The notes beneath the pieces are model-generated. The model worked only from the letters and a program-made list of their open reading frames with translations, was not told the origin of the DNA and did no database searches. The translations under genes and the position numbers were made by a program. Of a stretch of 64,000 nt of DNA, positions 6,281 through 64,000 are shown one piece after another (the first letter of the stretch is position 1; each line of letters begins with the position of its first letter). The stretch covers positions 57,548 through 121,547 of the forward strand of contig CAZWIS010000003.1 of the NCBI GenBank assembly GCA_964634275.1, given 5' to 3'. The DNA is from an uncultured Candidatus Cloacimonadota bacterium (GTDB lineage: Bacteria; Cloacimonadota; Cloacimonadia; Cloacimonadales; Cloacimonadaceae).

Positions 6281-6282
6281 CT

Positions 6283-8585: not shown

Positions 8586-8586
8586 G

Positions 8587-10303: not shown

Positions 10304-10312
10304 TACGATAAA

Positions 10313-10446: not shown

Positions 10447-10468
10447 CTGTCTTAAAGGTCTCACCTCA

Positions 10469-11602: not shown

Positions 11603-11633
11603 AAAGAGTCACTGAAAACTTCAAATGCCGAAA
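11603..11633 (+). repeat. 31-nt intergenic motif AAAGAGTCACTGAAAWCTKCAAATGCCRAAA, copy a
   Basis: Near-identical to the reverse complement of 40966..40996. Shorter relatives at 40753..40776 and 40814..40837. Confidence 0.7.
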
Positions 11634-36646: not shown

Positions 36647-36655
36647 TTTATCCTC

Positions 36656-38518: not shown

Positions 38519-38540
38519 ATAATCCTCCGCTTCTTCAGCA

Positions 38541-45154: not shown

Positions 45155-45173
45155 AAGCTTCTCAATTTGAAAG

Positions 45174-45307
45174 ACCATTGAACGTGTCTTCAGGTGAAGT
45201 AAATTGATGTGTCTTAACCCCTCTGAGTGGATAAAACTGGAATCTATACACACCCACCTCCCCTTTTGCTATGAAGCCCTGCACCATACCCCCGATTAAT
45301 CAATGGT
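45174..45307 (+). repeat. 134-nt dispersed element, copy 5
   Basis: ACCATTGAACGTGTCTTC...TCTATACACACCCACCTCCCCTTTTGCTATG...TCAATGGT, with 8-bp terminal complementarity. Starts 20 nt after the regulator stop. Confidence 0.8.
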
Positions 45308-45431
45308 TTTATGATTGTTTGAGTAAGGGGCTATTGTTCTTAGCCATGTCAACTGAAGTGTCTCCAAAAAAGCGCTTGACCATTTATTGAAACTACACAT
45401 GAATGCAACAAAGCGATTAGCGAGGTAGGAT

Positions 45432-47054
45432 GTGAATCAAGATGCTCGTATTTTGGTAGTTGATGATGACGATGTAATAATCAAGATAATTTCCATTATT
45501 CTGCACAAGAACGGTTATGAAACTGCTTCGTGCCACAGTGGCGAAGAAGCTTTGGAACTGGTTGAGCGCGAATATTTTGATCTGGTTCTCTTGGACGTCC
45601 AGATGGGAAAGGGTATGGACGGATATGAAACCTGCCGGATAATGCAAAAGAGAAAACCGGATTTACCAGTAATTCTGGTGACTGCAAATCAGGACGACGA
45701 ATCGGTCAATAAAGGCTTTGAATCCGGCTCCAGTGATTATATCAAGAAACCAGTGTCCAAACTGGAACTATTAGCCAGAGTAAACAAGACAATAACGCTC
45801 AAACGTACTGAAAAGAAGAATCTTCAATTGTTGGACGACCTCCGAAAAGATCTCCGTATAGCTGCCAATATTCAAGAAGCTATGCTACCGAAATGGATCT
45901 TTATGGATTACAACATCCTGTTTTCATCAAATTACCAGGCATCGGAATTAGTAGGTGGTGATTTATTCGATAGAATCAAGCTCGATGATAAACGCTATGT
46001 AGTATATATTGGAGACATCTCCGGACACGGTGTTCAAGCTGCCCTGCTGATGACTGCAGTCAAATCAGTCATCAAGCTGCTGGTCGAGGCAGACAAGGAT
46101 GCTGCAACACTGGCACAATTGTTCACCAAGCTAAACGAGAGGATATATCAGGAGCTATTTACACATAATAACTATATGACGATGTTGATGGGAGTAATAG
46201 ATCTGGAGATTGGTGAATTCAGGTTTCTAAATGCGGGGCATCCCCCCTTGATTATTATTGATTCTGAAAGCGGATCCGCTACGGTTCACGATAAAAAAGG
46301 ATCAGTTCCCTTGGGTTGGATGCCAAAGACAAAATACGATGATGACGACATAGACCACATTCCCCTAAAACAGGATCAAATATATCTGTTATACACAGAT
46401 GGGATATATGAATGCAGTAATCGTCAAAACCAGCAATTTGGACTCGATGGACTGATCAGTGTGTTGACAAATCACATTCCAATAGACGGCTGCATTAGTC
46501 TGGCTTATAAGATTAAACACTATCTGATCGAGAATAATTATGAGATCTCAGACGATGACTTTACTCTTTTTAGCTTCCAGTTACAAAATGAAAGTAAGCA
46601 GTTTACCCTTAGCTCTGGAAGAAGAGTCCGAGAGATTCGACGATTTATGTTTGTTCTTCGATCAGCCCTCAGAGATGTTGGCAAGACTGCTCTACAGTGT
46701 GAACAGCTGATTCTTGAATGGACTCAAGATAAAAAGCTGGCGGCAAAAGTAGAACTGATCGTTGATGAATTTTTGAACAACATCATCACGTATGGGTATA
46801 ACTATACAGAGGACGCCATCATTGTAATCGAATTCATTCTACATGATAGCAAGTTAAAAATAGTATTCTGGGACAAAGGTATTCATTGGGTTCCGGAAGC
46901 TATTGATGTAAACATAGACAAACCCTACGATTTCGATCAGGATCTGATGAACACCAGAGGTAAGGGTATCAAGATCATAAAATCACTTACCCACACATTC
47001 AGCAGAAGAAGATATGAGAACCTGAACGAAACCATGATCGAGATAAACTTATGA
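45432..47054 (+). CDS. Three-domain signalling protein: receiver + PP2C/SpoIIE phosphatase + RsbW/SpoIIAB-like HATPase (anti-sigma kinase) domain
   Basis: REC (ILVVDDDD...DLVLLDVQMGKGMDGYE...KP). PP2C block (GGDLFD, YIGDISGHGVQAALLM, NAGHPP, LYTDG). C-terminal LIVDEFLNNIITYG...GKGIKIIKSL. Confidence 0.8.
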   Translation: MNQDARILVVDDDDVIIKIISIILHKNGYETASCHSGEEALELVEREYFDLVLLDVQMGKGMDGYETCRIMQKRKPDLPVILVTANQDDESVNKGFESGSSDYIKKPVSKLELLARVNKTITLKRTEKKNLQLLDDLRKDLRIAANIQEAMLPKWIFMDYNILFSSNYQASELVGGDLFDRIKLDDKRYVVYIGDISGHGVQAALLMTAVKSVIKLLVEADKDAATLAQLFTKLNERIYQELFTHNNYMTMLMGVIDLEIGEFRFLNAGHPPLIIIDSESGSATVHDKKGSVPLGWMPKTKYDDDDIDHIPLKQDQIYLLYTDGIYECSNRQNQQFGLDGLISVLTNHIPIDGCISLAYKIKHYLIENNYEISDDDFTLFSFQLQNESKQFTLSSGRRVREIRRFMFVLRSALRDVGKTALQCEQLILEWTQDKKLAAKVELIVDEFLNNIITYGYNYTEDAIIVIEFILHDSKLKIVFWDKGIHWVPEAIDVNIDKPYDFDQDLMNTRGKGIKIIKSLTHTFSRRRYENLNETMIEINL

Positions 47055-52591: not shown

Positions 52592-53662
52592 TTAAAAAAC
52601 CTCTCTTGCATTGACTATAAAATTGAATGAATCAGACCCAAAACCAAAATCCATCCTAGTATTAAGACGCTCATTGGGTAATATCGAAAACCTGAATCCA
52701 AATCCTGCTGACCAATGCCATTCGGACAATCTAATCTGATCAATATCTGGAGTAACCTGACCTACTTCTCCGAAGATGACAAATCCCGCTCTTTTAGAAA
52801 AGCCACTCTCAAAAGGAAAAACACGCTGTTCTATTCTTTGTGCAATCCGGACTTTATCGATATAGCGTTTAGAATCGTATGCTCTTAGTCGATTACCCAG
52901 TTCCAGGTAATTGTAAAATGGCGTATTCCCATCATTCACAGCGAGATCGGTCTGTGTGGCAAAAACCATTTTATCCCCGATGGGACTATATGTCCGAAAG
53001 TCATATTTATGCTCCGTATAGTCAAAATCGCTACCCAAAACGCTATGATAGTAAATTTGCTGAAAGCTTATTCGCATTCCTTTTGTAGGATAATTCTCAT
53101 TGTCTGTAGAGCTATACATGAGCTTGTACCCGAGTCCAGAGTAGAAACTGGGATCCTTACCTACAAACTCCATATTATCGATAATCCCACCGGCTTCAAT
53201 CTCCCTAAGCCTATGGTGTCCCAAGCTTGATTTAGCAGATAAATAGAAGTCTTTGTACATTCTTTTCGTAATAGTAGTCTCGAGTGCGTACTGCTCCGAC
53301 ACAAAACCTTCAGATACTGACTTATCGGTATTGTTGCCAATGCCATAAAACTCGCTTGGCCAAAGCCTTAGATATATATCTGAGCTATACTTCAACCCCC
53401 ATAAAGGATCATTGTATTCTGGAACAAGAACAACCAGAAACTGCTTTTTTTGAGTATATATAGCATTACTAAGCAAAGAAACTTCTGGTTCGAATTCGTT
53501 TTGACACTGAAAATCAAATGTATATTTTGCAAAGGCAAATGCTCCTACCATCAGTTTCGTCTCACCCGAGTATGCAATATATGGGTATCCGTTTAGGGTA
53601 ATGGAGGCACTTAACTGGATTAGAAACAGGTTAATCAGAATAATATACGACCACTTCTTCAT
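52592..53662 (-). CDS. Omp85/surface-antigen(D15)-type outer-membrane beta-barrel without POTRA domains
   Basis: Signal peptide, beta-strand periodicity, and a C-terminal aromatic residue (...NAREVF). Lies 16 nt upstream of cls. Confidence 0.6.
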   Translation of the reverse strand: MKKWSYIILINLFLIQLSASITLNGYPYIAYSGETKLMVGAFAFAKYTFDFQCQNEFEPEVSLLSNAIYTQKKQFLVVLVPEYNDPLWGLKYSSDIYLRLWPSEFYGIGNNTDKSVSEGFVSEQYALETTITKRMYKDFYLSAKSSLGHHRLREIEAGGIIDNMEFVGKDPSFYSGLGYKLMYSSTDNENYPTKGMRISFQQIYYHSVLGSDFDYTEHKYDFRTYSPIGDKMVFATQTDLAVNDGNTPFYNYLELGNRLRAYDSKRYIDKVRIAQRIEQRVFPFESGFSKRAGFVIFGEVGQVTPDIDQIRLSEWHWSAGFGFRFSILPNERLNTRMDFGFGSDSFNFIVNAREVF

Positions 53663-53800
53663 GTGATAACCTCAATGTTCATTACGAAGATCAATCCTTC
53701 CCTACGGAACTATTGTCATTCAGTTATATTATACACCGATAAGAGAATAAGAGTATGTTTTATTTTATGCAGATTAGGTCAAATCAGCATAACCACATTG

Positions 53801-55153
53801 CTAAAACCTAATCATCATCAGTATCATAACTGAAATAGAAGAAACGAACAGCAATAAAACTGGCATATATATTTGTAAAAATGGATGTGGCTGTTTCTTC
53901 TGACTTTCTCCAAGGCACATTCCAAGACAGATTTTACCCATGGATGACATTATTGTTGTTAGCATTATGAACAACCCTACAAATCCCAAATAGTTTCCCT
54001 TCTGAAGCATAGCCACTGCTATAAAAAACTCACTAAAGAACAAAGGAGAAGGTGGAAACCCTACTAACATGGCAAATCCAATCAACCATGTCCAGGCGAT
54101 GGTTTTATTCTTGCTCAATAGCCCATCTACTTCATTGTATATCTTGGTTTTGTAAAGGCTTATAATATTCCCTGCACAAAGAAACATCGCTCCCTTGATC
54201 AATGAATGTCCCAAGATATGAGTATATCCTGCATAAATAGCAATCCCTCCGGTTCCAAACGCCAGCATGATTATACCCATGTTCTCTATTGATGAATAAG
54301 CAAGGAGTCTTTTGTAATTCTTTGTTTTCAGAGTAAATACAGTAGCAATGAAAACTGATACAAAACCCATCAGAAGGTAAATGGATTGTGCTACACTACC
54401 CAAACCGGATGCCGTCATGACTTTATCCATCCGGAGTACGGGTATTAATGCTGTATTCAATAGAGCTCCAGACAGAAGGGCTGAAATAGGTGCGGGGGCT
54501 TCTGAATGGGCATCTGGCAGCCAAAAATGAAGCGGTGCCAAACCTATTTTTGTCCCGAATCCCACTATTATAAAGACGAATGACATACGTAACCAAAAAG
54601 GAGAAACAAGATGGATTGCACCTATCAATTCTGGAAATTTCAGAGTAGCTGTTTCAGGCTGAGCAATCACCAATAAAAGAATACCGACAAATGCCAGTGC
54701 TATCCCTGTTGAACATATAAACAAATACTTCCAGGCTGCTTCCAACGCTGACTTTTTGTGCTCATATCCTATTAGCATCGCCGAAGCCAGTGTCGTCATC
54801 TCTACGAATATCCAGATAAAACCCAGATCTGTGCTAATGCAAGCAGCATCCATCGCCATGACAAAAATCATTAAACAAATACTATGGATACGATATGGTT
54901 TTATCTCCACTTTGGATTCTTGTCCGTATCTGTAAATAGCAATAGTAAAATACAATACGGATGTGATAGAAAAAGTAAACAAACCCAGATTATCCATAAC
55001 TGGGGTGGTGTTTCTAAAATAGTATGCACCTATAGCCACGCCAAAATGAACCAGCGCATGCAAAACAATCAGAAGATCAAAGTGCCTCGGTTTTGTCAGG
55101 AACATAGAAAGTACAATCAGAACTAACGGAATCCCAAAGAGATAGATTAACAT
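53801..55153 (-). CDS. Antiporter-like membrane subunit (HyfF/NuoM/N family) of the hydrogenase-like complex
   Basis: 450 aa, about 14 TM helices, Proton_antipo_M pattern (LAPLHFWLPDAH, AYSSIENMG). Confidence 0.8.
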   Translation of the reverse strand: MLIYLFGIPLVLIVLSMFLTKPRHFDLLIVLHALVHFGVAIGAYYFRNTTPVMDNLGLFTFSITSVLYFTIAIYRYGQESKVEIKPYRIHSICLMIFVMAMDAACISTDLGFIWIFVEMTTLASAMLIGYEHKKSALEAAWKYLFICSTGIALAFVGILLLVIAQPETATLKFPELIGAIHLVSPFWLRMSFVFIIVGFGTKIGLAPLHFWLPDAHSEAPAPISALLSGALLNTALIPVLRMDKVMTASGLGSVAQSIYLLMGFVSVFIATVFTLKTKNYKRLLAYSSIENMGIIMLAFGTGGIAIYAGYTHILGHSLIKGAMFLCAGNIISLYKTKIYNEVDGLLSKNKTIAWTWLIGFAMLVGFPPSPLFFSEFFIAVAMLQKGNYLGFVGLFIMLTTIMSSMGKICLGMCLGESQKKQPHPFLQIYMPVLLLFVSSISVMILMMIRF

Positions 55154-55800
55154 TAATCCTCCCTCAATGTGCTTGGACTATCTGCCTCGTCAAAAGTAGA
55201 TTTGATTCTGTTGATAAATAGAACTGCTATCAAAATGGATACCAGGATATCCAGTGAAACACCCAAGTTTACTATATATGGTAAATGGCTTCCAGCGGAG
55301 AGTGCTAGCATAAAGACTCCATTCTCCAAAATCAGGTATCCAATCAAATGTGAGATCAGTTTTTTGTTTGCAATAATGATAAACATTCCCTTTATCATAG
55401 CTGCAAACGCTATCCCGAACTCCAATGGATAAAGCTTGGCGGACCATCTATCAGACACGGCAACAAGAGCAAAACAAAGAACAAATATCAGGCTCATGAT
55501 AGCCAGAGAAAAGAAATTTGAAACATTGGGTTCAGTTTCCCTTCTGGTGTTATTCTTCTTTATTGTATCGCTAATAAATAATGGAATCAGCACAGCTTTG
55601 AAAATCAAAGTTTCAATGGCTATAAATGAAAAGCTTAGCCAATTCAATTGATTGGTTTTTAGAATCGTTAGGAGGAATAGGATCAAACCCTGAATTACCA
55701 GTATCCTGATCAGTGACAATAACATATTTGTAACTGATGCAAACAATAGACTCAACCCGAACAAAACAACAAGAATCTCGATCAAACGCCAACTCCCCAA
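55153..55800 (-). CDS. Small membrane subunit (HyfE/NuoK-like)
   Basis: 215 aa, 6-7 TM helices. 1-nt overlap downstream and 19-nt overlap upstream. Confidence 0.65.
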   Translation of the reverse strand: MGSWRLIEILVVLFGLSLLFASVTNMLLSLIRILVIQGLILFLLTILKTNQLNWLSFSFIAIETLIFKAVLIPLFISDTIKKNNTRRETEPNVSNFFSLAIMSLIFVLCFALVAVSDRWSAKLYPLEFGIAFAAMIKGMFIIIANKKLISHLIGYLILENGVFMLALSAGSHLPYIVNLGVSLDILVSILIAVLFINRIKSTFDEADSPSTLRED

Positions 55801-56696
55801 TACCTTACGATTAATGCTGAGAACACTAACAAAGAGATTGATACTGGCACTATTACCAGTTCCAGATTACGGTTCATCCTGAATCTGGCCATCATACTTT
55901 CAACGATTCCAGTAACAATACTGATCAAAAAAAGCAAAACAATAAACAATAGCGGGGTAGCCCAAAATCCTGCTGGGATTATCAAATGGCTGATCAATGA
56001 AGCGTATAAAAGGAGCTTCAAAGATGCAGTGTAGTGAATCAAAGCAAGAGAAAAGCCGCTGTAATCCAGGATCATAACTTCATGGATCATCGTAAGCTCC
56101 AAGTGCGTGCTTGGATCATCAAATGGTACCCGTGCAGATTCAACAAGAAGCATAATGTATAGTGCAACTATTGTCAATACAGCAACCAACGCATTCCATG
56201 AATTTCCAGTATTTACTATGTGTCCATTCACCAGCTCTGCCATAGTGTTTGTCTGCCCGCCAAAAAGTAATGAACCCATTATCAGCATAAATGCCGGCTC
56301 CAGAAATGCGGTAAATGATATCTCGCGGCTCGCGCCCATGCCCTCAAAACTGCTTCCGCTATCCATGGCAGCCAGTACCATTATACCTTTTGCAAGGGAC
56401 AACAGATAGACGAAGACTACAAAATCATACTTGAAGCTCAGTATAGTTTTGCCACTAAACATAGGGACAAACAATGCAGCACAAAACACTGCTATCAGAG
56501 CCATCAATGGAGCAAATATCGTAAGCCAGCTCGCTGTATCACTGATAACTTCAGATTTATTCAGAAGCTTCCAGAAGTGATAGTAAGGCTGAAAAAGGCT
56601 TTGACCTTTTCTACCCACTAATATGGCTTTAACCCTGTTAATAATCCCAGGGATCAGCATTGGCAAGATTGCAATAGCCAGAATATTTAGAATCAT
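55782..56696 (-). CDS. NuoH/HycD/HyfC-like membrane subunit
   Basis: Polytopic protein with ESARVPFD..STHLELTMIHEV, typical of the HycD/NuoH family. Start moved to the ATG at 56696, which forms an ATGA overlap with the upstream stop. Confidence 0.8.
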   Translation of the reverse strand: MILNILAIAILPMLIPGIINRVKAILVGRKGQSLFQPYYHFWKLLNKSEVISDTASWLTIFAPLMALIAVFCAALFVPMFSGKTILSFKYDFVVFVYLLSLAKGIMVLAAMDSGSSFEGMGASREISFTAFLEPAFMLIMGSLLFGGQTNTMAELVNGHIVNTGNSWNALVAVLTIVALYIMLLVESARVPFDDPSTHLELTMIHEVMILDYSGFSLALIHYTASLKLLLYASLISHLIIPAGFWATPLLFIVLLFLISIVTGIVESMMARFRMNRNLELVIVPVSISLLVFSALIVRYWGVGV

Positions 56697-58606
56697 TTCA
56701 ATACTCCCAAGACTAACATCAGGATCAAGATAAGCCAACCCAAACACCAGGCAATGTATCCATTTGTTTTTCCATTGTGAATTCCATCAAACATAGCTAA
56801 AAAGCGATGGTACAATCTTATTGCCGGTTTAATCAGCAGCTCGTTTACAAAATCTGTAACTCTCTCTTCATAACATACTTCAACCGGGAAGTCACCTTTG
56901 GGCGAAACGTCTTGTATATCCATAGAGATAAATGGTTTCAAGAAATAAGATAACGGACTGATGAATGCATGCCCAGTATATTGCAGTTTGCTGCTCCCAC
57001 CGCCATAGCCGCAACCCCATGTATGATGTTTCCTTTGTTTTACACACAATTTCCGGATTAGATAAAGACTTGCCAAAAGTATTATAACAAATCCATAAAC
57101 AACGCTAATCTGTCTATAGATTGTATCAAGAGCAGTCAATGATTCACTATTCATTCCGATCGATTGGACAACTGGTCGAACAAGCATCAAAGTTGAGCTT
57201 CCAAATACTCCACTTACAACAATCAATCCGGCCATTATATACATTGGTAATAGCATTAAACCAGGCATCTCTTTGGAGCTTGATGCTTTGGATGATCTGT
57301 GATTACCTAAAAAAGTAACAGAATACAACTTTGCAAAAGCAATAAGAGCCAAAGCTCCTACGAAAGACAGCAATGATAACGTCAAAACCGAAAGCAGTAT
57401 AACAGCAATGTGACTGGAATTGATACCGTAAAACAAGCCATAGAACATCCCAAATTCGCTAATAAATCCATTAAACAACGGTAGAGCAGAAATCGCTGCG
57501 CAGCCTGTCAAAAACAACATAGCTGTCTTGGGCATTGTTTTTACCAAGCCTCCTAATTCATCAATATCAATACTATGTGTTGCACAGAGTATGTTCCCAG
57601 ATAAATAGAATAACATAGGTTTGAACATTGAATGAAACAATACGTGCAGCATAGCTCCTGCAAAGCAAATCGCTGTCATGTCCACAAATCCGAAGTGTCT
57701 TCCAAGAAGACCCATGCTTATACTAAGTCCAATCAACCCCATATTTTCAATTGATGAATAAGCCAATCCAGTTTTTATGTTGTTCTCTACCAAAGCATGT
57801 ACTACGCCAGTGAAAGCTGTAATCAATGATATCAGCAAAAGCACAGTGATAGCAGCAAGTCCCAAGGGGTTGTGAATCAAAAGCAATACTATTCCATAAA
57901 GCCCTGTTGTAATCATAAGTCCACTCATAATGCCTGATACATGAGCTGGGGCTACAGGATGAGCTTTTGGCAACCAGGAGTAAAAAGGAAAGAACCCCGC
58001 TTTGAAAGCGAAACCAATTAACAACAATGCAAGTGTCCAGTTCGAAAGACCAGACAATTCTGTTATATCAAACGTTCCAGTATGGATGTAGTTCAGCCCA
58101 AAGCCGGCAAACAAGAAGAACGCACCGATCTGCATCATTACAATATAAAGCAACCCAGCCCCAATGCTTTGTTTACGGTTTGCGATCACACAAAAGAAAG
58201 AAGACAGACTCATCAATTCCCAGAATACCAGGAAAATCAAACTATGACGAATCCATAGTATAGCATGCATAGAAATTGCCATCAATCCCAGCCATATCAG
58301 ATGAGATCTCAAGCATGGCAAGGGATGTTCTTTGTGATAAAAATAACTATAAACGATCCCTAATGGCAACCCAAGGGAAAACATCAATCCAAAAATAGCC
58401 GACAGTGGATTTAGCCCTATACTCGCACTGCCAATTATCGATGGAAGAGGTAAGATATAGCTTTGTTCTATGCTGCCAAACATCACCTGTACATAATCAT
58501 ACCCGATCAAAGCTGATCCGATTATCCATATCAGTGCGAATAGCAAGTGTCGCTTTGTAGCAGCAAACAACAAAGATGCAGAAAGTATTACAAAGCCTGG
58601 ATTCAC
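56693..58606 (-). CDS. Antiporter-like membrane subunit (HyfB/NuoL family)
   Basis: 637 aa. FPFYSWLPKAHP and AYSSIENMG motifs. Confidence 0.8.
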   Translation of the reverse strand: MNPGFVILSASLLFAATKRHLLFALIWIIGSALIGYDYVQVMFGSIEQSYILPLPSIIGSASIGLNPLSAIFGLMFSLGLPLGIVYSYFYHKEHPLPCLRSHLIWLGLMAISMHAILWIRHSLIFLVFWELMSLSSFFCVIANRKQSIGAGLLYIVMMQIGAFFLFAGFGLNYIHTGTFDITELSGLSNWTLALLLIGFAFKAGFFPFYSWLPKAHPVAPAHVSGIMSGLMITTGLYGIVLLLIHNPLGLAAITVLLLISLITAFTGVVHALVENNIKTGLAYSSIENMGLIGLSISMGLLGRHFGFVDMTAICFAGAMLHVLFHSMFKPMLFYLSGNILCATHSIDIDELGGLVKTMPKTAMLFLTGCAAISALPLFNGFISEFGMFYGLFYGINSSHIAVILLSVLTLSLLSFVGALALIAFAKLYSVTFLGNHRSSKASSSKEMPGLMLLPMYIMAGLIVVSGVFGSSTLMLVRPVVQSIGMNSESLTALDTIYRQISVVYGFVIILLASLYLIRKLCVKQRKHHTWGCGYGGGSSKLQYTGHAFISPLSYFLKPFISMDIQDVSPKGDFPVEVCYEERVTDFVNELLIKPAIRLYHRFLAMFDGIHNGKTNGYIAWCLGWLILILMLVLGVLK

Positions 58607-59334
58607 TTCCCCCCCATGATTTTGTAAATACCATACAAAATCGAAAGTGGATGAGCAGGACAGCCAGGAATATACAAAACCGCTTTCTGATCACATAACC
58701 ATCTGCGATCCAATCGATTTCCATTCACAAACATTCCTCCACTTATAGAGCAGGTGCCGCATAAAATCAAAAACTTTGGGTCTGGTATCGCATCCCATGT
58801 ACTCCTAAGGGCTTCCTCCATGTTTATGCTGACTGGACCAGTCAATATCAAAGCATCTGCATGTCGGGGAGATGCTACAACCTCTATTCCATAACGCCCC
58901 ATATCAAAGTTTACATTGGAAGAAGCAGCCAGTTCCAGTTCGCAGGCATTACATCCTGCAGCTGAGACATTTCTGAGAGCAAAGGACTTCCTAAAGATGC
59001 TGGGTAATCTGAAAGTAATCGCATTTTGCCTGTAATCTGTCTGACCTGGTTTTATGATTAGTTTATCTCGTTCGTCTGCTGCCATCTTATAATCTGCAGA
59101 AAAGGTTACATGATCGGGAAAGGTTCTTTCACACATCCCGCAAAATATGCACTTTCCCATATCAAGTCCCTGCTTATCTATTGCATTTACAGGGCATACC
59201 TTTGATATCTCATCAAGATCTGCGTTTATATTTAGTAATGGCAAGCCTGGAAATGATTCGTTAATCGCCACATCAATTGGATTTGCTATAGCCTGATAAC
59301 CATGAGCAAAACGCGCTTTAATCAATTCAAACAT
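58603..59334 (-). CDS. Fusion of a degenerate ferredoxin-like domain with a NuoB/HycG-type small subunit
   Basis: N-terminal part: ...KVCPVNAI then CIFCGMCERTFP. C-terminal part: GCNACELE, ILTGP, CGTCSISGG and PGCP, which is the proximal [4Fe-4S] ligand pattern. Confidence 0.8.
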   Translation of the reverse strand: MFELIKARFAHGYQAIANPIDVAINESFPGLPLLNINADLDEISKVCPVNAIDKQGLDMGKCIFCGMCERTFPDHVTFSADYKMAADERDKLIIKPGQTDYRQNAITFRLPSIFRKSFALRNVSAAGCNACELELAASSNVNFDMGRYGIEVVASPRHADALILTGPVSINMEEALRSTWDAIPDPKFLILCGTCSISGGMFVNGNRLDRRWLCDQKAVLYIPGCPAHPLSILYGIYKIMGGK

Positions 59335-60767
59335 TATAGATCACTCCCGCAATATGACAGATCGAAGCTTTTGTTACACAATGGAAAATCCGAAATCCCT
59401 TCTCCACGAACAGCCAGGGCCAAAGCAAACCAGTTATGAAGCGATGGGTCTATGACACGATAGGATTCAACTTTGCCCAGGTGATTTGTATGGCATACAT
59501 GGAGCAATCTGCCTCTATGACTTTCGACGATTGATAATGCCAACCGGTTGGGCTGAACTTCTTGTATTGCCATATTCAATGACGAGTCCATATCTACCTG
59601 CGGTAACCATCCCAAGATCATATTGATCGATTGTTCTATCTCTGCCGCCCTAAGCCATGCTCTGGCAAAGACATCTCCGCTATTATGGATAATTGGTTCA
59701 AACAGAAACTTTTCATCAATCGGGAAGTCTTTTCTGGCATCAATCATGTGGCCAGAGGATTTTGCAACAATACCAGTAAACCCGAGTCTTTGCACATCAG
59801 TTGGCGTTATAACACCTGTGTTATCGAATCTGGAAAGAACACTGGCAGTCGATAGCATTCCTGCGGTGGTATTCCTGATCCTGACCTGGCATTGCGACAA
59901 TGTGTCTGTAAATACTTCTATCTGCTTCTGGTCCAGAGAATAGTTCACTCCCCCTGGACACAACCAGCGTTTGCCAAACCGGCTTCCACAGATTGAAAGA
60001 GTGCTGTTTATGATCATTGTCCTCAAAGCCGCAAAGAGATTCTGACCCATTATGTATGCAACGTCTCCAGCTAATGCTGACAACACTGATAAATGCATCG
60101 CTATTCTTTCCATTTCCAAGGCTATCAAACGTGTTATAGTTTGGTTTGGGTGACAGTCAGTAAGGGCTTCTACAACGAGACAATATGCAAGGCCATGAGC
60201 AATTGCTGAATCTCCGGCAATTGATTCTGCCAAACATATCTTGGATCGGATATCCCCCTCCATCATCATCCGTATTACTCCACGATGCTGATATCCCAAT
60301 TGTATTTCTAAATGCTCGATCTTTTCCCCCCGACATATAAATCGGAAGTGCCCAGGCTCAATTACTCCCGCATGAACAGGACCCACGCCTACTTCATGTA
60401 ATGATCTGGAATGGCTCTCCAAAAAGGGATATCTATACATTTGACCAGCAACTTCTCCAGGAAAACGCAGAGCTTTGAGCCAAGGATGCCCAACTGGTAA
60501 TAACCCATATTCCTCGTACAACTCACGTTCAAAGATGTGAAATGCTGGAAAATCTGGAGTAAGAGCATCGTAACGTCCACAATCAGGAAATGCACATAGA
60601 AGGACTTCTGTCTCAGAATTGAAAGATAAAATACATATAATTTGCCGATTATTCTCTCCAAACAGACACAATGGGTGATATCCTTTTGCACAGAGTAATC
60701 GAATCCGCTCGAAGAACTTAGTACTCTCCATGAGCATTGGCAGAGATAATAACATAGGACTATTCAT
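59334..60767 (-). CDS. NuoC+NuoD/HycE-like large subunit lacking the NiFe-binding cysteines
   Basis: GPVHAGVIEPGHFRF is diagnostic of group-4 large subunits and NuoD. The L1 position reads LAESIAGDSAIAHGLAY instead of ER-CG-C---H. The C-terminus reads FDLSYCGSDL instead of DPC--C--R/H. Confidence 0.85.
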   Translation of the reverse strand: MNSPMLLSLPMLMESTKFFERIRLLCAKGYHPLCLFGENNRQIICILSFNSETEVLLCAFPDCGRYDALTPDFPAFHIFERELYEEYGLLPVGHPWLKALRFPGEVAGQMYRYPFLESHSRSLHEVGVGPVHAGVIEPGHFRFICRGEKIEHLEIQLGYQHRGVIRMMMEGDIRSKICLAESIAGDSAIAHGLAYCLVVEALTDCHPNQTITRLIALEMERIAMHLSVLSALAGDVAYIMGQNLFAALRTMIINSTLSICGSRFGKRWLCPGGVNYSLDQKQIEVFTDTLSQCQVRIRNTTAGMLSTASVLSRFDNTGVITPTDVQRLGFTGIVAKSSGHMIDARKDFPIDEKFLFEPIIHNSGDVFARAWLRAAEIEQSINMILGWLPQVDMDSSLNMAIQEVQPNRLALSIVESHRGRLLHVCHTNHLGKVESYRVIDPSLHNWFALALAVRGEGISDFPLCNKSFDLSYCGSDL

Positions 60768-60948
60768 CGTACATACAAACAGAAACTTCCATTTTATTGT
60801 CGATCGCCGATATTGCTTTATATCAGGCAGTTATGAGCATCACAGCGTCGACTTATTGACGATCTCCGCAATATCATGTTTTTGTAAAGTATTTTCGAAT
60901 AATACCATGGAAAGGAATGTGGTTTACAGCCCCTATTTAAACTCTCAG

Positions 60949-60977
60949 ATAATAGACAAAAACCTATTATCAATCAA
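60949..60977 (-). promoter_or_regulatory. Candidate promoter of the hydrogenase-like operon
   Basis: Minus strand: TTGATT (60977-72), 17 nt, TATTAT (60954-49), about 180 nt upstream of the first ATG. Confidence 0.25.
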
Positions 60978-61014
60978 GACTGAATACTTTATGGATTGTA
61001 TAGTAACGAGAAGA

Positions 61015-62397
61015 CTATTTGCGAAACTTGCGAATAAACTCCTCTACCTCAGGTATTCCTCCCTGAAACACCAGATATCCATTGTATGGTTCTCCGTCTG
61101 TGATTTCTCCGGCAATTGGTTTCAGCATCAGATTGCGTACAACTTCCGGGTCACTACTTTGTCCCAGAGCCCATCCCAGTTTGATGTATGCTACTTCAGG
61201 TAGCATATTTTCAGATGGCACTATCCCCATACTCATCAAGTCCCTGCCAGTATCATAAACAAACATGTGTACAAACCCCCAAAGAGTTTGAACGGTCATG
61301 TAGATATGCACTCCTTTTTCCACAGCTCTTTTAATGGCTGGATAAACTGGCTTGTTAATATGACCCAGCCCAGTACCGGCAATAACGATTCCCTTGTAGC
61401 CATTATCGGTCAGAGAATCGATGATATCCGGATGCATATTGGGATAGTAATACACTATGGCAACCCGTTCTTCAAAGAAAGGATAAACAGACACATGATT
61501 ATCCTTTCTTCTGCGATGATAATCTTGTTTCAGGGGTTCTACTTTCTCCCTTGTTACAGTAGCCACAGGAATGTCACCTATTGTCCTGAATGTAGAACGA
61601 TACGAAGAGTGCATCTTTCGCACTCTGGTTCCCTGATGTAGAAGGCCATAATCATCGCTGGTAGGACCAAACATACAAACCATTACTTCTGCTATGTCGC
61701 TATGCCCTGCTGCTGTGGCTGCATGCATCAAATTTAACGCAGCATCGGATGATGGCCTGTCTGATGATCTTTGTGAACCAACCATAACCACAGGAACCGG
61801 CAAATCTTGAAGCATAAAAGACAATGCTGCTGCAGTGTGATGCATCGTATCGGTTCCATGCCCGATAATAATACCATCCACACCTTTTTTTATCTCTTCC
61901 CCAATTGATATTGCCAGCTTTTTGTATTGTTCCGGACCCATGTTTTCGGAAAAAACCGCAAAGAGCTTTTCGGTTTCAAGATTACAAATGTCTGCCAGTT
62001 CAGGTACAGCTCCATACAGCTCACCTGGAGAAAACGCAGGTATAACAGCTCCAGTACGATAGTCCAATCTTGAAGCTATTGTCCCACCAGTCCCGAACAA
62101 CTTCACTTTGGGCAAATTTGGAGTTTTGGGGAATTCACGCTCGGGAATCTTGTAATGAGCTTCCTTAAAACCAGTTTCAGTCATACTGATTATCGTATCA
62201 ATATCAATACCAACGTTGTAACCTGTGATGAGTTTAATCACAATATGCCGGTCGTCGTCATTCTCGGATCTGGGAAGGATGATACCCTGGAATTTTCCTC
62301 TGCTGGTTTCGATCGTTGTATCACCCCATACTCTTACATGAAAGGATCTTAGTATGTCCAGGGCAGCCCCTTTGTAACCTTTGAATAGATCAAGCAT
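61015..62397 (-). CDS. gatD: Glu-tRNA(Gln) amidotransferase subunit D (archaeal type)
   Basis: GatD-specific N-terminal domain (GKFQGIILPRSE...IVIKLITGYNVGI). Asparaginase signature LFGTGGTIASRLDYRTGAV and HGTDTM. 460 aa. Confidence 0.85.
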   Translation of the reverse strand: MLDLFKGYKGAALDILRSFHVRVWGDTTIETSRGKFQGIILPRSENDDDRHIVIKLITGYNVGIDIDTIISMTETGFKEAHYKIPEREFPKTPNLPKVKLFGTGGTIASRLDYRTGAVIPAFSPGELYGAVPELADICNLETEKLFAVFSENMGPEQYKKLAISIGEEIKKGVDGIIIGHGTDTMHHTAAALSFMLQDLPVPVVMVGSQRSSDRPSSDAALNLMHAATAAGHSDIAEVMVCMFGPTSDDYGLLHQGTRVRKMHSSYRSTFRTIGDIPVATVTREKVEPLKQDYHRRRKDNHVSVYPFFEERVAIVYYYPNMHPDIIDSLTDNGYKGIVIAGTGLGHINKPVYPAIKRAVEKGVHIYMTVQTLWGFVHMFVYDTGRDLMSMGIVPSENMLPEVAYIKLGWALGQSSDPEVVRNLMLKPIAGEITDGEPYNGYLVFQGGIPEVEEFIRKFRK

Positions 62398-64000
62398 GCT
62401 GCACCTCGTTTTCGATATATTCGGTAACTCTGTTTCTTAGCTGTTTCAATGATATGTTTCCCAAAGCCGGTTTTCGCAGTCTTCCCATAATCCACTTTAT
62501 CTCCGCTTCCGGCATTATTGCGGATTTGTGCTTTATCTTCATAAACATTTCATGGAGCAGCGGGATTTGATTGTAAATTGTGTCCGCATCACTTGGAATG
62601 TATCCTACAAGCTGAAGTATCGAAGAAAACACCATATTAGGGTTATGGTATAGAATCTTCACCATATCTGGCATAATGTCCAAAGTCAGTTTCTTTTTGT
62701 TTAGATAGCGGAAAAGATCAGCGATTCTATCATATCCAAATGGTAAGGCTTTATCTCCCTGAAGTGATTTTATCATATGAGCATATAACAGACACAAGTA
62801 TCGAGGATCTGCGTTGATTTCCCCAGAAATACTCTCAATAGCAGGCAACATATTGAAACGTAATAAGTAGGCATAGGCATCAAGAGGAACGTTCCATGCC
62901 TTTAATTGTTCCATTCTGTATAGTGGATCTGCGGGTAAGTCTTTTCTGGCTGATTCAATCATTTCTTCCAAAATCGGAATTGGAGCAGAATCTGTATCGG
63001 GATACATTCTATCTGCCCCAGGTAGCACTCTTTCAAAAATGCTGGTTCCATTACTGAGTGATTTACGGGTTTCATTTGGTACTCCATCAAAAGCCATCAT
63101 ACATCTTTCATGAATTGTTTCGATAGCAGTAACGAGATCTTCTTCTGGAGTCCATAGCAATATCTGGGCATCGTTTTCTTTCGACTTCAGGATTGTTCTA
63201 AGGGTTTCTATGTCTTTCTCTGTGAGATTGGGGACAAGTTCTTCACTGTGATACATATTAGGATGCTCCAAACATGCGATCACCTTCAGGCGTTGGGACA
63301 ATTCGTCTGCAAAGCATTGCCCAGGCTGGGTAAAATGTGAAAGTATGTTTTTATACTCGGGGAGGTTTACACCCACAATTTTCCATGATTCAGAGCTGAT
63401 TTTGCGCAATAACGGAATATGTCCCCAGTCTTCTGTATGAAGTTCCTGCCAATGGAGATTCCATTTCTTTGGTTTTGTTACCCGTTTCGTCATGGCATCT
63501 TTAATCATCAAAAGAGCTTTTTGACGAAATGCTTCGTTATGAGTCAATTTTGGAATCCATGAGATATGGGCTACACCCTTTATTTCTACTCTGGTACCTC
63601 CTTCGATGCTGACATTTACATCCTGACGTGCAGCACCAATCCCAGAACGAGCTACTCCAGAGCACCTGTTCAGATACCTTATATAGTAACCTGCTTCAGC
63701 AGCTTCAGAGGGATTCGACATATCTGGATAAGTTACTACCTCACAAAGAGGCATACCCAGCCTGTCTCCAAAATATACTCTACGGTGCCTATAATCCGAT
63801 ACTTCCCTGCAACTATCTTCCTCTACGCTGAATTGAATGATCCGGATAGTCTTGTTTGATATGGGAATTTCGCCTTCGATGCCCAGGATTGTAGTCCGCT
63901 GAAATCCAGTCGGAATACTGCCATCCAGATATTGCTTTCTCGTAATATGTAGCTCTCCGACGATATTCATCTTGAGTAACAGCGCTATTTTCATCGCATG
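62390..64000 (-). CDS. gatE: Glu-tRNA(Gln) amidotransferase subunit E (archaeal type), N-terminus beyond the right edge
   Basis: GELHITRKQYLDGSIPTGFQRTTIL, LGMPLCEVVTYPD and GIGAARQDVNVSIEGGTRVEIKGV. The reading frame stays open to position 64000, and GatE proteins are normally about 100 aa longer at the N-terminus. Confidence 0.85.
   Translation of the reverse strand, partial: HAMKIALLLKMNIVGELHITRKQYLDGSIPTGFQRTTILGIEGEIPISNKTIRIIQFSVEEDSCREVSDYRHRRVYFGDRLGMPLCEVVTYPDMSNPSEAAEAGYYIRYLNRCSGVARSGIGAARQDVNVSIEGGTRVEIKGVAHISWIPKLTHNEAFRQKALLMIKDAMTKRVTKPKKWNLHWQELHTEDWGHIPLLRKISSESWKIVGVNLPEYKNILSHFTQPGQCFADELSQRLKVIACLEHPNMYHSEELVPNLTEKDIETLRTILKSKENDAQILLWTPEEDLVTAIETIHERCMMAFDGVPNETRKSLSNGTSIFERVLPGADRMYPDTDSAPIPILEEMIESARKDLPADPLYRMEQLKAWNVPLDAYAYLLRFNMLPAIESISGEINADPRYLCLLYAHMIKSLQGDKALPFGYDRIADLFRYLNKKKLTLDIMPDMVKILYHNPNMVFSSILQLVGYIPSDADTIYNQIPLLHEMFMKIKHKSAIMPEAEIKWIMGRLRKPALGNISLKQLRNRVTEYIENEVQHA

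What the first reader, a model, noticed from the sequence alone, without database searches (positions are those of the whole stretch)
53801..60767. Six-gene group-4-hydrogenase-like operon whose catalytic subunit has lost all four canonical NiFe cysteine ligands (Ehr-type complex of unknown substrate)
Six co-directional genes are translationally coupled by ATGA, 1-nt and 19-nt overlaps. They encode a NuoCD/HycE-like large subunit, a ferredoxin-NuoB/HycG fusion, and HyfB/NuoL-, HycD/NuoH-, HyfE/NuoK- and HyfF/NuoM-like membrane subunits.

The large subunit keeps the family-diagnostic GPVHAGVIEPGHFRF. Where membrane-bound [NiFe] hydrogenases have ER-C-G-x-C-x3-H, it reads AESIAGDSAIAH. Where they end in D-P-C-x-x-C-x-x-R/H, it reads FDLSYCGSDL, with one Cys shifted by a residue.

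No hyp maturation, endopeptidase or formate dehydrogenase genes are in the window. This matches the poorly understood 'energy-converting hydrogenase related' (Ehr) class, thought to sit between group 4 hydrogenases and complex I. The gene order here is soluble module first, then four membrane subunits. The electron donor and acceptor are unknown, and it may be an ion-translocating module in a fermentative anaerobe.
Basis: partly seen in the sequence, partly recalled or inferred. Interest (0 to 1): 0.75.

Follow-up and report, generated by a model that had tools for sequence, protein, structure and literature searches.

The report
Nickel-free hydrogenase-like membrane complex (Ehr)
This is a six-gene operon for a membrane ion-pumping complex that descends from nickel-iron hydrogenases but has lost the metal-binding cysteines; it belongs to the widespread, already named Ehr/Hyq family, whose substrate is still unknown.

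Summary
Six tightly coupled genes on the minus strand (53801-60767) encode a NuoCD/HycE-like large subunit, a ferredoxin-NuoB fusion, and HyfB-, HycD-, HyfE- and HyfF-like membrane subunits. Against HycE, HyfG and MbhL, the four [NiFe] cysteine columns read A184, S187, S471 and G474.

This is not a local oddity. The replacement motifs E-x-I-[A/S/C]-G-D-[S/T] and NKSF-x-LSY-x-G-x-DL are conserved in 114 of 118 family representatives, and relatives occur in at least 595 species genomes from about 20 phyla. The family includes rhizobial HyqG and fits the published Ehr definition.

Specific to this lineage:
- The operon is circularly permuted: L-S-A-C-B-D here, against A-C-B-D-L-S elsewhere.
- The ferredoxin-like domain keeps exactly one [4Fe-4S] site.

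Both Fe-S sites, the loop glutamate and C-terminal aspartate that match proposed coupling residues in MbhL, and the membrane charge residues are all retained. I therefore read it as a ferredoxin-fed, redox-driven H+/Na+ translocator whose electron acceptor is unknown. It is neither a fragment of complex I nor a decaying hydrogenase.

Verdict: a new member of a known but functionally unsolved kind. Interest is moderate.

The parts
59334..60767 (-). L: large subunit (477 aa), a fused NuoC-like and NuoD/HycE-like protein (EhrL/HyqG type) without [NiFe] ligands
   Evidence: Pfam PF00346 6e-28 and PF00329 weak. Best PDB sequence hit is HycE 7z0s_E at 4e-30. AF2 model has pLDDT 88.9; best fold match is HycE with TM 0.85, followed by the fused NuoCD chains of E. 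coli and Aquifex. blastp gives HyqG 31% (194 bits) > HycE 26% (127 bits) > NuoCD 22% (78 bits).
60195..60230 (-). Remnant of the L1 [NiFe] motif: A180-ESIAGDSAIA-H191. A184 and S187 replace the two cysteines, and D186 is clade-specific.
   Evidence: Alignments. Among 114 Cys-less representatives: D186 is Asp in 105, position 187 is S/T in 93, G185 is Gly in 108, and H191 (MbhL His75 position) is His in 78.
59337..59366 (-). Remnant of the L2 [NiFe] motif at the C-terminus: F468-DLSYCGSD-L477. S471 and G474 replace the cysteines. The protein ends here, with no cleavable extension.
   Evidence: Among 114 representatives: S471 in 102, G474 in 109, D476 in 109, but C473 in only 44. HycE and HyfG continue past this point with the maturation peptide.
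60339..60383 (-). Beta1-beta2 loop motif GPVHAGVIEPGHFRF. E137 aligns with MbhL Glu21 (= Nqo4 His38 position).
   Evidence: Invariant in alignments A1 and A2. E137 is Glu in 106 of 114. The role of Glu21 as proton donor and coupling element in MBH is taken from PMC11228991.
58603..59334 (-). S: small subunit (243 aa), an N-terminal HycF/NuoI-like ferredoxin half-domain fused to a NuoB/HycG domain (EhrS type)
   Evidence: PF01058 1.7e-23. NCBIfam HycF-family PRK12387 covers residues 1-95, with NuoI hits over 54-96. HycG 7z0s_G 1.3e-24. The fusion is present in 52 homologous S proteins from many phyla.
59131..59196 (-). Single retained [4Fe-4S] site of the ferredoxin-like domain: C47 (CP of motif 1) plus C62, C65 and C68 (motif 2). 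The motif-1 CxxCxxC is absent and the fourth Cys of motif 2 is F72.
   Evidence: about 55-60% of homologues have all 8 Cys. Cloacimonadota, many Bacteroidales and Melainabacteria have lost exactly the four ligands of one cluster. Identifying the retained cluster as the N6b equivalent (next to N2) rests on the textbook ligand pattern of 2x[4Fe-4S] ferredoxins and Nqo9 (my knowledge).
58660..58953 (-). Proximal (N2-like) [4Fe-4S] ligands C128, C131, C195 and C225, in the hydrogenase-type CxxC arrangement rather than the complex-I tandem CC
   Evidence: Residue-by-residue alignment with HycG, MbhJ and Nqo6; positions.
56693..58606 (-). A: HyfB/HycC/NuoL-like antiporter-type subunit (637 aa; GTG start)
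   Evidence: NCBIfam hydrogenase 4 subunit B 1.2e-116. HycC 7z0s_C 3.8e-47. E130 (TM5), K202 (TM7), H325 and E384 (TM12) align with NuoM E144, K234, H348 and E407.
55782..56696 (-). C: HycD/HyfC/NuoH-like subunit (probable start Met18 at 56696; the longest ORF reaches 56747)
   Evidence: PF00146 2.6e-31. 40% identity to rhizobial HyqC. Conserved charges include E133, D193, E200, E206, D211, R271 and R273, aligning with NuoH E157, D213, E220, D223, E228, R291 and R293. Homologues are 302-305 aa.
55153..55800 (-). B: HyfE/HyqE-like subunit with a NuoK-like C-terminal half (215 aa from the TTG at 55800; 210 aa if the TTG at 55785 is used)
   Evidence: NCBIfam hydrogenase 4 membrane subunit 1.1e-15. 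HyqE 27%. The Glu of GYLILENG aligns with NuoK E36, and an Asp aligns with NuoK E72.
53801..55153 (-). D: HyfF/NuoM-like antiporter-type subunit (450 aa)
   Evidence: NCBIfam hydrogenase 4 subunit F 1.4e-76. HyfF 38%, HyqF 34%. E118, K202, H316 and E375 are conserved.
60768..61014 (-). 247-bp intergenic region upstream of L, between gatD and the operon; presumed control region
   Evidence: Sequence read. The promoter and terminator scan was no better than shuffles and there is no Rfam match. This assignment is inference only.

Best explanation
The operon encodes a six-subunit Ehr/Hyq-type complex. It keeps the architecture of a six-subunit group-4 [NiFe] hydrogenase, presumably 4f-like, but has no [NiFe] centre.

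Proposed mechanism:
1. A low-potential donor, most plausibly reduced ferredoxin from 2-oxoacid oxidoreductases, docks on the HycF/NuoI-like half-domain of S.
2. It reduces the single [4Fe-4S] cluster there. The electron then passes to the N2-like cluster of the NuoB-like domain, which sits against L.
3. Redox and protonation changes occur in the remodelled pocket of L: E137 on the beta1-beta2 loop, D186, S187, H191, S471 and D476.
4. As proposed for MBH and complex I, these changes are relayed through C (NuoH-like) and B (NuoK-like) to the two antiporter-like subunits A and D, which move H+ or Na+ across the membrane.
5. The electron leaves to an acceptor bound at the L/S/C interface. That acceptor is not H+ reduced at a NiFe site. 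Its identity is unknown.

Shown here: subunit identities, absence of the NiFe ligands, retention of both Fe-S sites, retention of the coupling and channel residues, family membership, and stand-alone gene context.

Inferred: the donor, the direction of electron flow, ion pumping, and the existence of an acceptor.
For: - Composition and homology.
- Ligand columns read A/S/S/G.
- Strong purifying selection on the replacement motifs: D186 105/114, S471 102/114, G474 109/114. Relatives occur in at least 595 species genomes.
- All four proximal-cluster Cys are retained.
- Exactly one complete ferredoxin-type cluster is retained; the four ligands of the other are lost together.
- The coupling residues are kept: E137 (= MbhL Glu21) in 106/114 and D476 (= MbhL Asp379) in 109/114 (roles from PMC11228991).
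- TM5 Glu, TM7 Lys and TM12 Glu are conserved in A and D, the NuoH-type acidic residues in C, and the NuoK-type Glu in B.
- A Cys-bearing relative (P0286) has the identical A-C-B-D-L-S set, including the Fer4-NuoB fusion. The input module therefore predates loss of the metal site.
- The window contains no hyp, protease or fdh gene.
- L ends at the L2 remnant, with no C-terminal maturation peptide.
Against: - No acceptor can be named. The pocket has neither the NuoD Tyr/His quinone ligands (G185 and I136 lie at those columns) nor the hydrogenase cysteines.
- No conserved partner gene was found in 83 loci that would point to a donor or an acceptor.
- The rhizobial Hyq small subunit lacks the ferredoxin domain altogether. 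Ferredoxin input is therefore not universal in the wider clade.
- There is no expression or biochemical evidence for this organism.
- The AF2 model is least confident exactly at the beta1-beta2 loop and the C-terminal tail.
Confidence: 0.55

Rival explanations
1. Redox-sensing, non-turnover cation/proton antiporter. The peripheral arm no longer catalyses a reaction. Its Fe-S cluster or clusters only report the redox state of the ferredoxin pool and gate an Mrp-like antiporter formed by A, B, C and D.
For: - No acceptor site is recognisable and no partner genes are conserved.
- The distal cluster has been lost repeatedly, and Hyq lacks the whole ferredoxin domain.
- In 19 of 80 loci the operon is preceded by an HTH-PTS EIIA(Ntr-like) regulator gene. 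From my own knowledge, that protein class is linked elsewhere to ion homeostasis.
- The family occurs in organisms of very different redox lifestyles.
Against: - The residues matching the proposed proton donor and coupling residues of MbhL (E137, H191, D476), plus R418, are conserved as strictly as in true hydrogenases. That fits ongoing chemistry better than a passive sensor.
- Mrp antiporters work without any NuoB/NuoD module, so keeping about 720 residues of peripheral arm only for sensing would be costly.
Confidence: 0.2
2. Complex-I-like ferredoxin:quinone oxidoreductase, possibly reversible, analogous to NDH-1 or Fpo. Menaquinone binds in the L/S/C cavity. This is the reading proposed for Hyq and for Ehr as a 'missing link'.
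For: - The superfamily precedent: NuoD is also a NiFe-less large subunit.
- The fold matches NuoCD with TM about 0.82-0.85.
- Published proposals: PMC3357923 and Marreiros 2013 as cited in PMC4758237.
- Many hosts of the family are quinone-containing respirers.
Against: - The Tyr and His that bind the quinone head group in NuoD are G185 and I136 here.
- S carries the hydrogenase-type CxxC, not the tandem CC of N2.
- L is closer to HycE and HyqG than to NuoCD, and it groups with Cys-bearing hydrogenases.
- Ehr-bearing Riflemargulisbacteria genomes were reported to lack quinone biosynthesis (PMC6349859).
- The window has no quinone genes, and Cloacimonadota are described as lacking complete respiratory complexes (PMC12590816).
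Confidence: 0.1
3. It is still a hydrogenase. Like the Hyq 'endo-hydrogenase' reported in Azorhizobium caulinodans, the Cys-less large subunit would catalyse H2 evolution or uptake at an unconventional site. This would give Cloacimonadota a ferredoxin-dependent, energy-converting H2 producer.
For: - Genetic and physiological reports say that deleting hyqRBCEFGI changes H2 recycling and evolution (PMC2650096, PMC3357923).
- Rhizobial HyqG shares the diagnostic motifs of this L (..SGDST.. and DFPLCNKSFNCSYSGHDL) at 31% identity.
- The second-sphere residues E137, H191 and R418 are retained.
- Cloacimonadota are said to lack a ferredoxin-dependent hydrogenase (PMC13082233).
Against: - No known H2-activating cofactor can be bound without the four cysteines.
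- The only nearby Cys (C473, C464) are variable across the family: 44/114 and 72/114.
- There is no C-terminal maturation peptide, and no hyp genes in the window.
- The Hyq evidence is indirect. It comes from in vivo gas measurements in a nitrogenase background, and its authors themselves call a NiFe site 'uncertain, if not unlikely'.
- HydDB-type classifications exclude Ehr (PMC6349859, PMC10284858).
Confidence: 0.07
4. Fragment of a larger complex I or formate hydrogenlyase whose remaining genes lie outside the window, or a decaying pseudo-operon.
For: - The window ends 3.2 kb upstream of L.
- KEGG-style surveys score Cloacimonadota as having a 'partial complex I' (PMC12590816).
Against: - The 3.2 kb upstream is filled by gatD and gatE, and downstream lie an Omp85-like gene and cardiolipin synthase.
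- In three Cloacimonadota-type loci with 10-kb flanks the same six genes stand alone among unrelated genes.
- 83 loci show no conserved nuo, fdh or hyp neighbour.
- All six ORFs are intact and tightly coupled, and functional residues are conserved.
Confidence: 0.03

Closest known systems
Ehr (energy-converting / Ech-hydrogenase-related) complexes, e.g. Geobacter sulfurreducens EhrABCDLS, GSU0739-45 (Coppi 2005; Marreiros et al. 2013)
   Same: - The same six kinds of subunit: NuoL/HyfB-like, NuoH-like, HyfE-like, HyfF-like, large and small.
- The large subunit lacks both CxxC motifs, and the small subunit keeps the proximal cluster.
- Reported as a sister group of group 4f hydrogenases, with function unknown (PMC7894505, PMC10284858, PMC6349859).
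- 80 loci from about 20 phyla recovered here share the motifs and the ehrA-C-B-D-L-S order.
   Different: - The gene order here is L-S-A-C-B-D, a circular permutation seen only in the Cloacimonadota-type loci.
- The ferredoxin-like domain of S has one cluster instead of two.
- There is no HTH-EIIA gene upstream.
Hyq 'endo-hydrogenase' of Azorhizobium caulinodans and rhizobia (hyqRBCEFGI; Ng et al. 2009, Sprecher et al. 2012)
   Same: - A six structural subunit set, one-to-one homologous: L-HyqG 31%, C-HyqC 40%, D-HyqF 34%, A-HyqB 31%, S-HyqI 43% over the NuoB domain.
- HyqG shares the SGD[ST] and NKSF..SY.G.DL motifs.
- It falls in the same clade, with 90% bootstrap together with the 4f-like sequences.
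   Different: - HyqI is 177 aa and has no ferredoxin-like domain.
- It forms a separate, 100%-supported subclade.
- It has a hyqR regulator, belongs to the nif regulon and occurs in aerobic diazotrophs.
- It is claimed to be a quinone-linked hydrogenase, which nothing here supports for this organism.
Cys-bearing relatives with the same architecture, presumed group 4f [NiFe] hydrogenases (e.g. P0286, Planctomycetota 'Ca. Wujingus')
   Same: - An identical A-C-B-D-L-S architecture, including the Fer4-NuoB fused small subunit.
- Shared GP.HAG.IEPGHFRF and PL.NKSF.L.Y...D. framework.
- About 31-35% identity.
   Different: These proteins keep ER-x-CG-x-C and L-C-Y-x-C and match PF00374. The window protein has A/S/S/G at those columns, plus a clade-specific Asp186. 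The '4f' label is inferred from the literature (PMC10284858), not from a HydDB run.
E. coli formate hydrogenlyase / hydrogenase-4 (Hyc/Hyf; PDB 7Z0S)
   Same: - Best solved-structure match for L (HycE, TM 0.85), S (HycG) and A (HycC).
- B and D correspond to HyfE and HyfF.
- The hydrogenase-type CxxC is present in the small subunit.
   Different: - There is no NiFe site and no C-terminal maturation peptide.
- There is no HycB/HyfA, no separate HycF/HyfH, no HyfD and no FdhF partner.
- Identity is 22-38%.
Respiratory complex I (NuoB/CD/H/K/L/M) and P. furiosus MBS (Mbx)
   Same: Both are NiFe-less members of the same superfamily that use a NuoB-type cluster next to a remodelled large subunit to drive antiporter-like subunits.
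   Different: - The NuoD Tyr/His are absent and there is no NuoA/E/F/G/J/N.
- NuoCD is only 22% identical (78 bits).
- MbsL is a far weaker match (6u8y_L, 3.5e-7), and there are no Mrp-type extra subunits.

Membership tests
Ehr / Hyq complexes | Six-subunit set: two antiporter-like subunits, NuoH-like, HyfE-like, a fused NuoC-D-like large subunit and a NuoB-like small subunit, encoded contiguously | tested here: met
   The same set is found in 83 loci and in the annotated Rhizobium hyq locus.
Ehr / Hyq complexes | Large subunit lacks the N- and C-terminal CxxC [NiFe] ligands | tested here: met
   A184, S187, S471 and G474 lie at the four columns against HycE, HyfG and MbhL.
Ehr / Hyq complexes | Small subunit retains the four Cys of the proximal [4Fe-4S] cluster | tested here: met
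   C128, C131, C195 and C225 align with the HycG, MbhJ and Nqo6 ligands.
Ehr / Hyq complexes | Sequence clustering with recognised members rather than with true hydrogenases or NuoD | tested here: met
   HyqG is the best reference hit (194 bits, against HycE 127 and NuoCD 78). The SGD[ST] and NKSF..SY.G.DL motifs are shared. The clade with 4f-like sequences has 90% bootstrap. Monophyly of the Cys-less sequences alone is unresolved (8%). Geobacter EhrL itself was not compared.
Group 4 membrane-bound [NiFe] hydrogenase (e.g. 4a FHL, 4f) | Four cysteine ligands (L1 RxCGxC, L2 DPCxxC or equivalent) | tested here: not met
Group 4 membrane-bound [NiFe] hydrogenase (e.g. 4a FHL, 4f) | C-terminal extension removed by a maturation endopeptidase, with hyp genes and a protease gene nearby | tested here: not met
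   L ends at ..GSDL, directly after the L2 remnant, whereas HycE and HyfG continue. There are no hyp or hycI-like genes in the 64 kb. The rest of the genome was not searchable.
Group 4 membrane-bound [NiFe] hydrogenase (e.g. 4a FHL, 4f) | H2 evolution or uptake activity | not testable with these tools
   This needs biochemistry. Only indirect genetic claims exist, for the Hyq relatives.
Respiratory complex I / NDH-1 | At least 11 core subunits, including NuoA, J, K, N and I, encoded together | tested here: not met
   There are only six genes. The flanks are unrelated in the window and in L001-L003.
Respiratory complex I / NDH-1 | NuoD quinone-head-group ligands (Tyr87 and His38 in T. thermophilus numbering) and the tandem-Cys N2 motif in NuoB | tested here: not met
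   G185 and I136 lie at those columns. S has CxxC (GCNAC), not CC.
MBS/Mbx sulfane-sulfur reductase | 13-subunit Mrp-linked architecture and close MbsL/MbsJ homology | tested here: not met
   MbsL 6u8y_L scores only 3.5e-7 and MbsJ 1.5e-12, far weaker than the Hyc/Mbh hits. There are no MrpE/F/G-like genes.

The most novel reading that the evidence does not exclude
The conserved Cys-less pocket (E137, E181, D186, S/T187, H191, R418, S471, Y472, D476) is a real catalytic site of a new type. One possibility is a cysteine-independent H2-evolving centre, as the Azorhizobium Hyq genetics suggest. Another is a site that reduces an unrecognised small acceptor directly from the proximal [4Fe-4S] cluster. 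Under this reading, the Ehr complex would be the missing ferredoxin-dependent, ion-pumping electron outlet of Cloacimonadota and of hundreds of other anaerobic lineages, including gut Alistipes/Rikenellaceae and Melainabacteria.
Probability: 0.08. Interest if true: 0.9.

Novelty: new member of a known kind. Interest (0 to 1): 0.38.

Why it matters
Ehr/Hyq complexes are among the most widespread members of the complex-I superfamily with no assigned reaction. This scan alone found them in at least 595 species-level genomes.

Metabolic reconstructions routinely mislabel them as 'Ni,Fe-hydrogenase III', 'NADH-quinone oxidoreductase subunit C' or 'partial complex I'. Cloacimonadota surveys do this too, and they do not discuss the complex.

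Recognising it here avoids a false hydrogenase or complex I call. It also adds a candidate ferredoxin-linked coupling site to the energy budget of a syntrophic, sodium-based fermenter.

The comparative results narrow the question without solving it:
- A Cys-bearing relative has the identical six-subunit architecture.
- The replacement motif is strictly conserved.
- The residues matching the proposed coupling Glu and Asp of MbhL are retained.
- One ferredoxin cluster has been cleanly lost.

The window itself does not make the open question more testable, because the organism is uncultured.

Tried and rejected
- Exact-sequence contig look-ups for the window's own L (as P0001) and S found nothing. 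I used homologues instead.
- The promoter and terminator scan of 53400-61300 gave counts equal to shuffled sequence. No transcription signals can be claimed.
- Rfam and tRNA scans of the whole window found nothing.
- A search for conserved partner genes (FDH, NuoEF, hyp) around 83 loci found none. The only recurrent neighbour was the HTH-EIIA gene; the other clusters looked like antisense artefacts of my crude ORF calling in high-GC loci.
- tblastn of that HTH-EIIA protein against the window and L001-L003 was negative.
- Cluster-member look-ups gave no taxon name for the window's own protein. The Cloacimonadota assignment therefore rests on named homologues at 53-57% identity and on context genes.
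- That run showed a single loss of the cysteines cannot be asserted.
- AF2 coordinates are not exposed, so the pocket could not be inspected in 3D.
- Considered and rejected: recent pseudogenisation, a fragment of complex I, and an MBS-type sulfur reductase.

Full report
**Observation**

The six ORFs lie on the minus strand exactly as described:
- L 59334-60767 (477 aa)
- S 58603-59334 (243 aa)
- A 56693-58606 (637 aa)
- C 55782-56747
- B 55153-55800
- D 53801-55153

The junctions are TAATG (L/S), GTGA (S/A, with a GTG start), ATGA (A/C, if C starts at Met18), TTGA or a 19-nt overlap (C/B), and TAATG (B/D).

Pfam and NCBIfam assign the subunits as follows:
- L: Complex1_49kDa, with a weak Complex1_30kDa N-terminus.
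- S: Oxidored_q6, plus a HycF/NuoI-like N-terminus.
- A and D: Proton_antipo_M, with best models HyfB and HyfF.
- C: NADHdh.
- B: the HyfE model.

Every score is far below the equivalog cut-offs, so none of these proteins is an orthodox Nuo, Hyc or Hyf protein.

**The cysteine columns**

phmmer against PDB sequences gives HycE (7z0s_E, 4e-30) and MbhL (6cfw_L) as the best hits. The printed alignments put A184 and S187 opposite the CGxC cysteines, and S471 and G474 opposite the C-terminal pair. C473 lies one residue before the second L2 column.

A MAFFT alignment with E. coli HycE, HyfG and NuoCD, taken from NC_000913.3, confirms this. It also shows that L stops right after the L2 remnant, whereas HycE and HyfG carry the maturation peptide.

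**Rest of the window**

A Pfam survey of all 51 large ORFs found no hyp, protease, fdh, nuo or quinone-biosynthesis gene.

The neighbours are archaeal-type gatD/gatE upstream, and an Omp85-like gene plus cardiolipin synthase downstream.

Elsewhere the window holds Na+-translocating methylmalonyl-CoA decarboxylase genes and acetate kinase. These fit a sodium-based fermenter.

Named homologues of L at 53-57% identity are all Cloacimonadota.

**How general is it**

All 120 closest homologues, down to 43% identity, carry AE-x-I-A-G-D-[ST] and NKSF[DN]LSY[CA]G-x-DL.

A search of 1.84 billion 50%-identity cluster representatives gave 4045 hits, 427 of them below 1e-30. Of 118 representatives aligned at both motifs, only four have all four cysteines.

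In the other 114, conservation is as follows:

| Position | Conserved residue | Count of 114 |
|---|---|---|
| D186 | Asp | 105 |
| 187 | Ser/Thr | 93 |
| S471 | Ser | 102 |
| G474 | Gly | 109 |
| E137 | Glu | 106 |
| R418 | Arg | 105 |
| D476 | Asp | 109 |
| C473 | Cys | 44 |

The Cys-less state is therefore old and under strong constraint. The 'shifted' cysteine is not part of the conserved site.

The 80 loci returned span Spirochaetota, Bacteroidales/Alistipes/Rikenellaceae, Melainabacteria, Planctomycetota, Verrucomicrobiota, Desulfobacterota, Myxococcota, Omnitrophota, Chlamydiota, Ignavibacteria and others.

**Synteny**

In nearly all of those loci the order is A-C-B-D-L-S, the published ehrABCDLS / hyqBCEFGI order.

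In the window and in three Cloacimonadota-type loci (L001-L003) the order is L-S-A-C-B-D, a circular permutation. Flanking genes there are unrelated.

No formate dehydrogenase, NuoEF or hyp gene is a conserved neighbour.

The one recurrent neighbour, in 19 of 80 loci, sits directly upstream of A. It encodes a protein of about 230 aa with HTH_17 and PTS_EIIA_2 domains. It is absent here.

**Relation to known systems**

The literature defines Ehr complexes as group-4-hydrogenase relatives that lack the Ni/Fe-coordinating residues. It describes them as of unknown function and as phylogenetically close to group 4f (PMC6349859; PMC10284858; Geobacter proteomics in PMC7894505).

A second named group is the Hyq 'endo-hydrogenase' of Azorhizobium. 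It is a six-subunit hyqRBCEFGI system whose HyqG lacks both CxxC motifs (PMC3357923, PMC2650096).

tblastn against plasmids recovered rhizobial and Azospirillum loci. The annotated Rhizobium locus is HTH-hyfB-nuoH-hyfE-hyfF-'nuoC'-nuoB. Its 504-aa large subunit reads ..RTSGDSTVAY.. and ..DFPLCNKSFNCSYSGHDL, with cysteines at 259, 491 and 497. This matches the published HyqG description.

Each window protein, except the HyfB-like subunit A, has its best reference match in Hyq or ties with Hyf:
- L-HyqG 31% (194 bits), against HycE 127 bits and NuoCD 78 bits.
- C-HyqC 40%.
- S-HyqI 43%, over the NuoB domain.
- D-HyqF 34% and D-HyfF 38%.
- A-HyfB 30% (241 bits), against HyqB 31% (192 bits).

A neighbour-joining tree was rooted on NuoCD:
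- HycE and HyfG fall outside a clade with 90% bootstrap. That clade holds the Cys-bearing '4f-like' sequences together with all the Cys-less ones.
- The Cloacimonadota-type and Hyq-type subclades each have 100% support.
- Monophyly of the Cys-less sequences has only 8% support. Whether the ligands were lost once or several times stays open.

The Cys-bearing relative P0286 (Planctomycetota) has the same A-C-B-D-L-S architecture, including a Fer4-NuoB fused small subunit. The whole six-subunit design, with its input domain, was therefore inherited from a genuine hydrogenase.

**What is retained**

- S keeps all four proximal-cluster cysteines, in the hydrogenase-type CxxC arrangement.
- The ferredoxin-like domain is fused to the NuoB domain in all 52 S homologues examined.
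  - About 55-60% of them have eight Cys, enough for two clusters.
  - Cloacimonadota, many Bacteroidales and Melainabacteria keep only C47 (the CP of motif 1) plus C62, C65 and C68. They have lost the four ligands of the other cluster together.
  - By the standard ligand pattern of 2x[4Fe-4S] domains, the survivor is the cluster next to N2 (the N6b equivalent). This step is inference from textbook knowledge.
- In L, E137 aligns with MbhL Glu21 and D476 with MbhL Asp379. These residues are proposed to deliver protons and to trigger loop movements that start ion transport in MBH (PMC11228991).
- A and D keep the TM5 Glu, TM7 Lys and TM12 Glu. C keeps the NuoH-type acidic and arginine residues. 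B keeps the NuoK-type Glu.
- The AF2 model of L is confident (pLDDT 88.9, pTM 0.90) except at the beta1-beta2 loop and the C-terminal tail. It matches HycE best (TM 0.85), then the fused NuoCD chains. No Ehr/Hyq structure exists in the PDB copy.

**Interpretation**

The simplest reading is a ferredoxin-fed, two-cluster electron wire that drives an H+ or Na+ translocating membrane arm. The chemistry would occur in a remodelled, cysteine-free pocket, and the electron acceptor is unknown.

The named candidates each have problems:
- Quinone is disfavoured. G185 and I136 replace the NuoD Tyr and His. S has CxxC rather than CC. Some Ehr hosts are reported to lack quinone biosynthesis.
- H2 is disfavoured by the missing ligands, the missing maturation signals and the variability of nearby cysteines. 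The Hyq genetics keep it alive at low probability.
- A non-turnover, redox-gated antiporter is a serious rival. No acceptor site or partner gene can be found, and input clusters have been shed repeatedly.
- Fragment-of-complex-I and pseudogene readings are refuted by context and conservation.

**Novelty and score**

New here are the Cloacimonadota instance, the permuted operon, the one-cluster small subunit and the quantified conservation of the replacement motifs. Recent phylum surveys do not discuss the complex. [quoted passage not shown] As I read the unlabelled columns of their supplementary tables, hyfB is listed in about 20% of genomes.

This is a new member of a known kind. Interest is moderate, because the underlying question of what Ehr does remains open and this uncultured instance does not make it more testable.

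Noticed in passing
window 61015-63994 (minus strand): Archaeal-type Glu-tRNA(Gln) amidotransferase genes sit directly upstream of the Ehr operon, in what appears to be a Cloacimonadota bacterium. GatD scores 513 bits on TIGR02153 (cut-off 324). GatE matches model positions 103-628, with its N-terminus cut by the window end. GatDE is normally an archaeal system.
   Followed up: partly
loci L004, L005, L009, L020, L027, L037, L047, L049, L058, L062, L067-L069, L075, L079, L080 etc., immediately upstream of ehrA: In 19 of 80 non-Cloacimonadota loci a gene of about 230 aa precedes the Ehr operon on the same strand. It encodes an N-terminal HTH_17 DNA-binding domain fused to a PTS EIIA-2 (PtsN-like) domain. 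It may be a dedicated regulator. It is absent from the window.
   Followed up: partly
window 3555-7833 (minus strand): Genes for a Na+-translocating methylmalonyl-CoA decarboxylase: mmdA (TIGR01117, 805 bits), the beta subunit (TIGR01109) and an OAD_gamma-containing 290-aa protein. They indicate sodium-based energy conservation in this organism.
   Followed up: partly
window 35516-38933 (minus strand): A GlmL-family (mutase accessory/reactivase-like) protein of 620 aa. It is flanked by a 376-aa and a 130-aa ORF with no Pfam or NCBIfam match. This may be an unrecognised aminomutase-type cluster.
   Followed up: no
L085 (Variovorax sp. plasmid NZ_LR594673.1, 525073-540868): Two paralogous six-gene clusters lie side by side. 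One is Ehr-type with a ferredoxin-fused small subunit, and its L is 40.5% identical to the window's. The second begins with hyfB about 3.4 kb downstream.
   Followed up: no
L089/L090 (Planctomycetota 'Ca. Wujingus'), 4877-12871: A cysteine-bearing hydrogenase with the same A-C-B-D-L-S architecture has a PDDEXK_3 gene inserted between L and S. It would be a useful 'before' state for comparison with Ehr.
   Followed up: partly
window 41311-47054 and 27613-30483: Several signalling genes: an FG-GAP sensor kinase, a sigma-54 response regulator, a response regulator-SpoIIE phosphatase-HATPase fusion and a PAS/GAF hybrid kinase. A sigma-54 activator also lies near the Ehr cluster in L003, L065 and L079. 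No link to the operon was established.
   Followed up: no
rep alignment, P0173, P0184, P0186, P0193, P0210, P0223: A subclade of the family has also lost the otherwise invariant GPVHAG.IEPGH loop motif and NKSF. This suggests further functional divergence or decay within Ehr.
   Followed up: no
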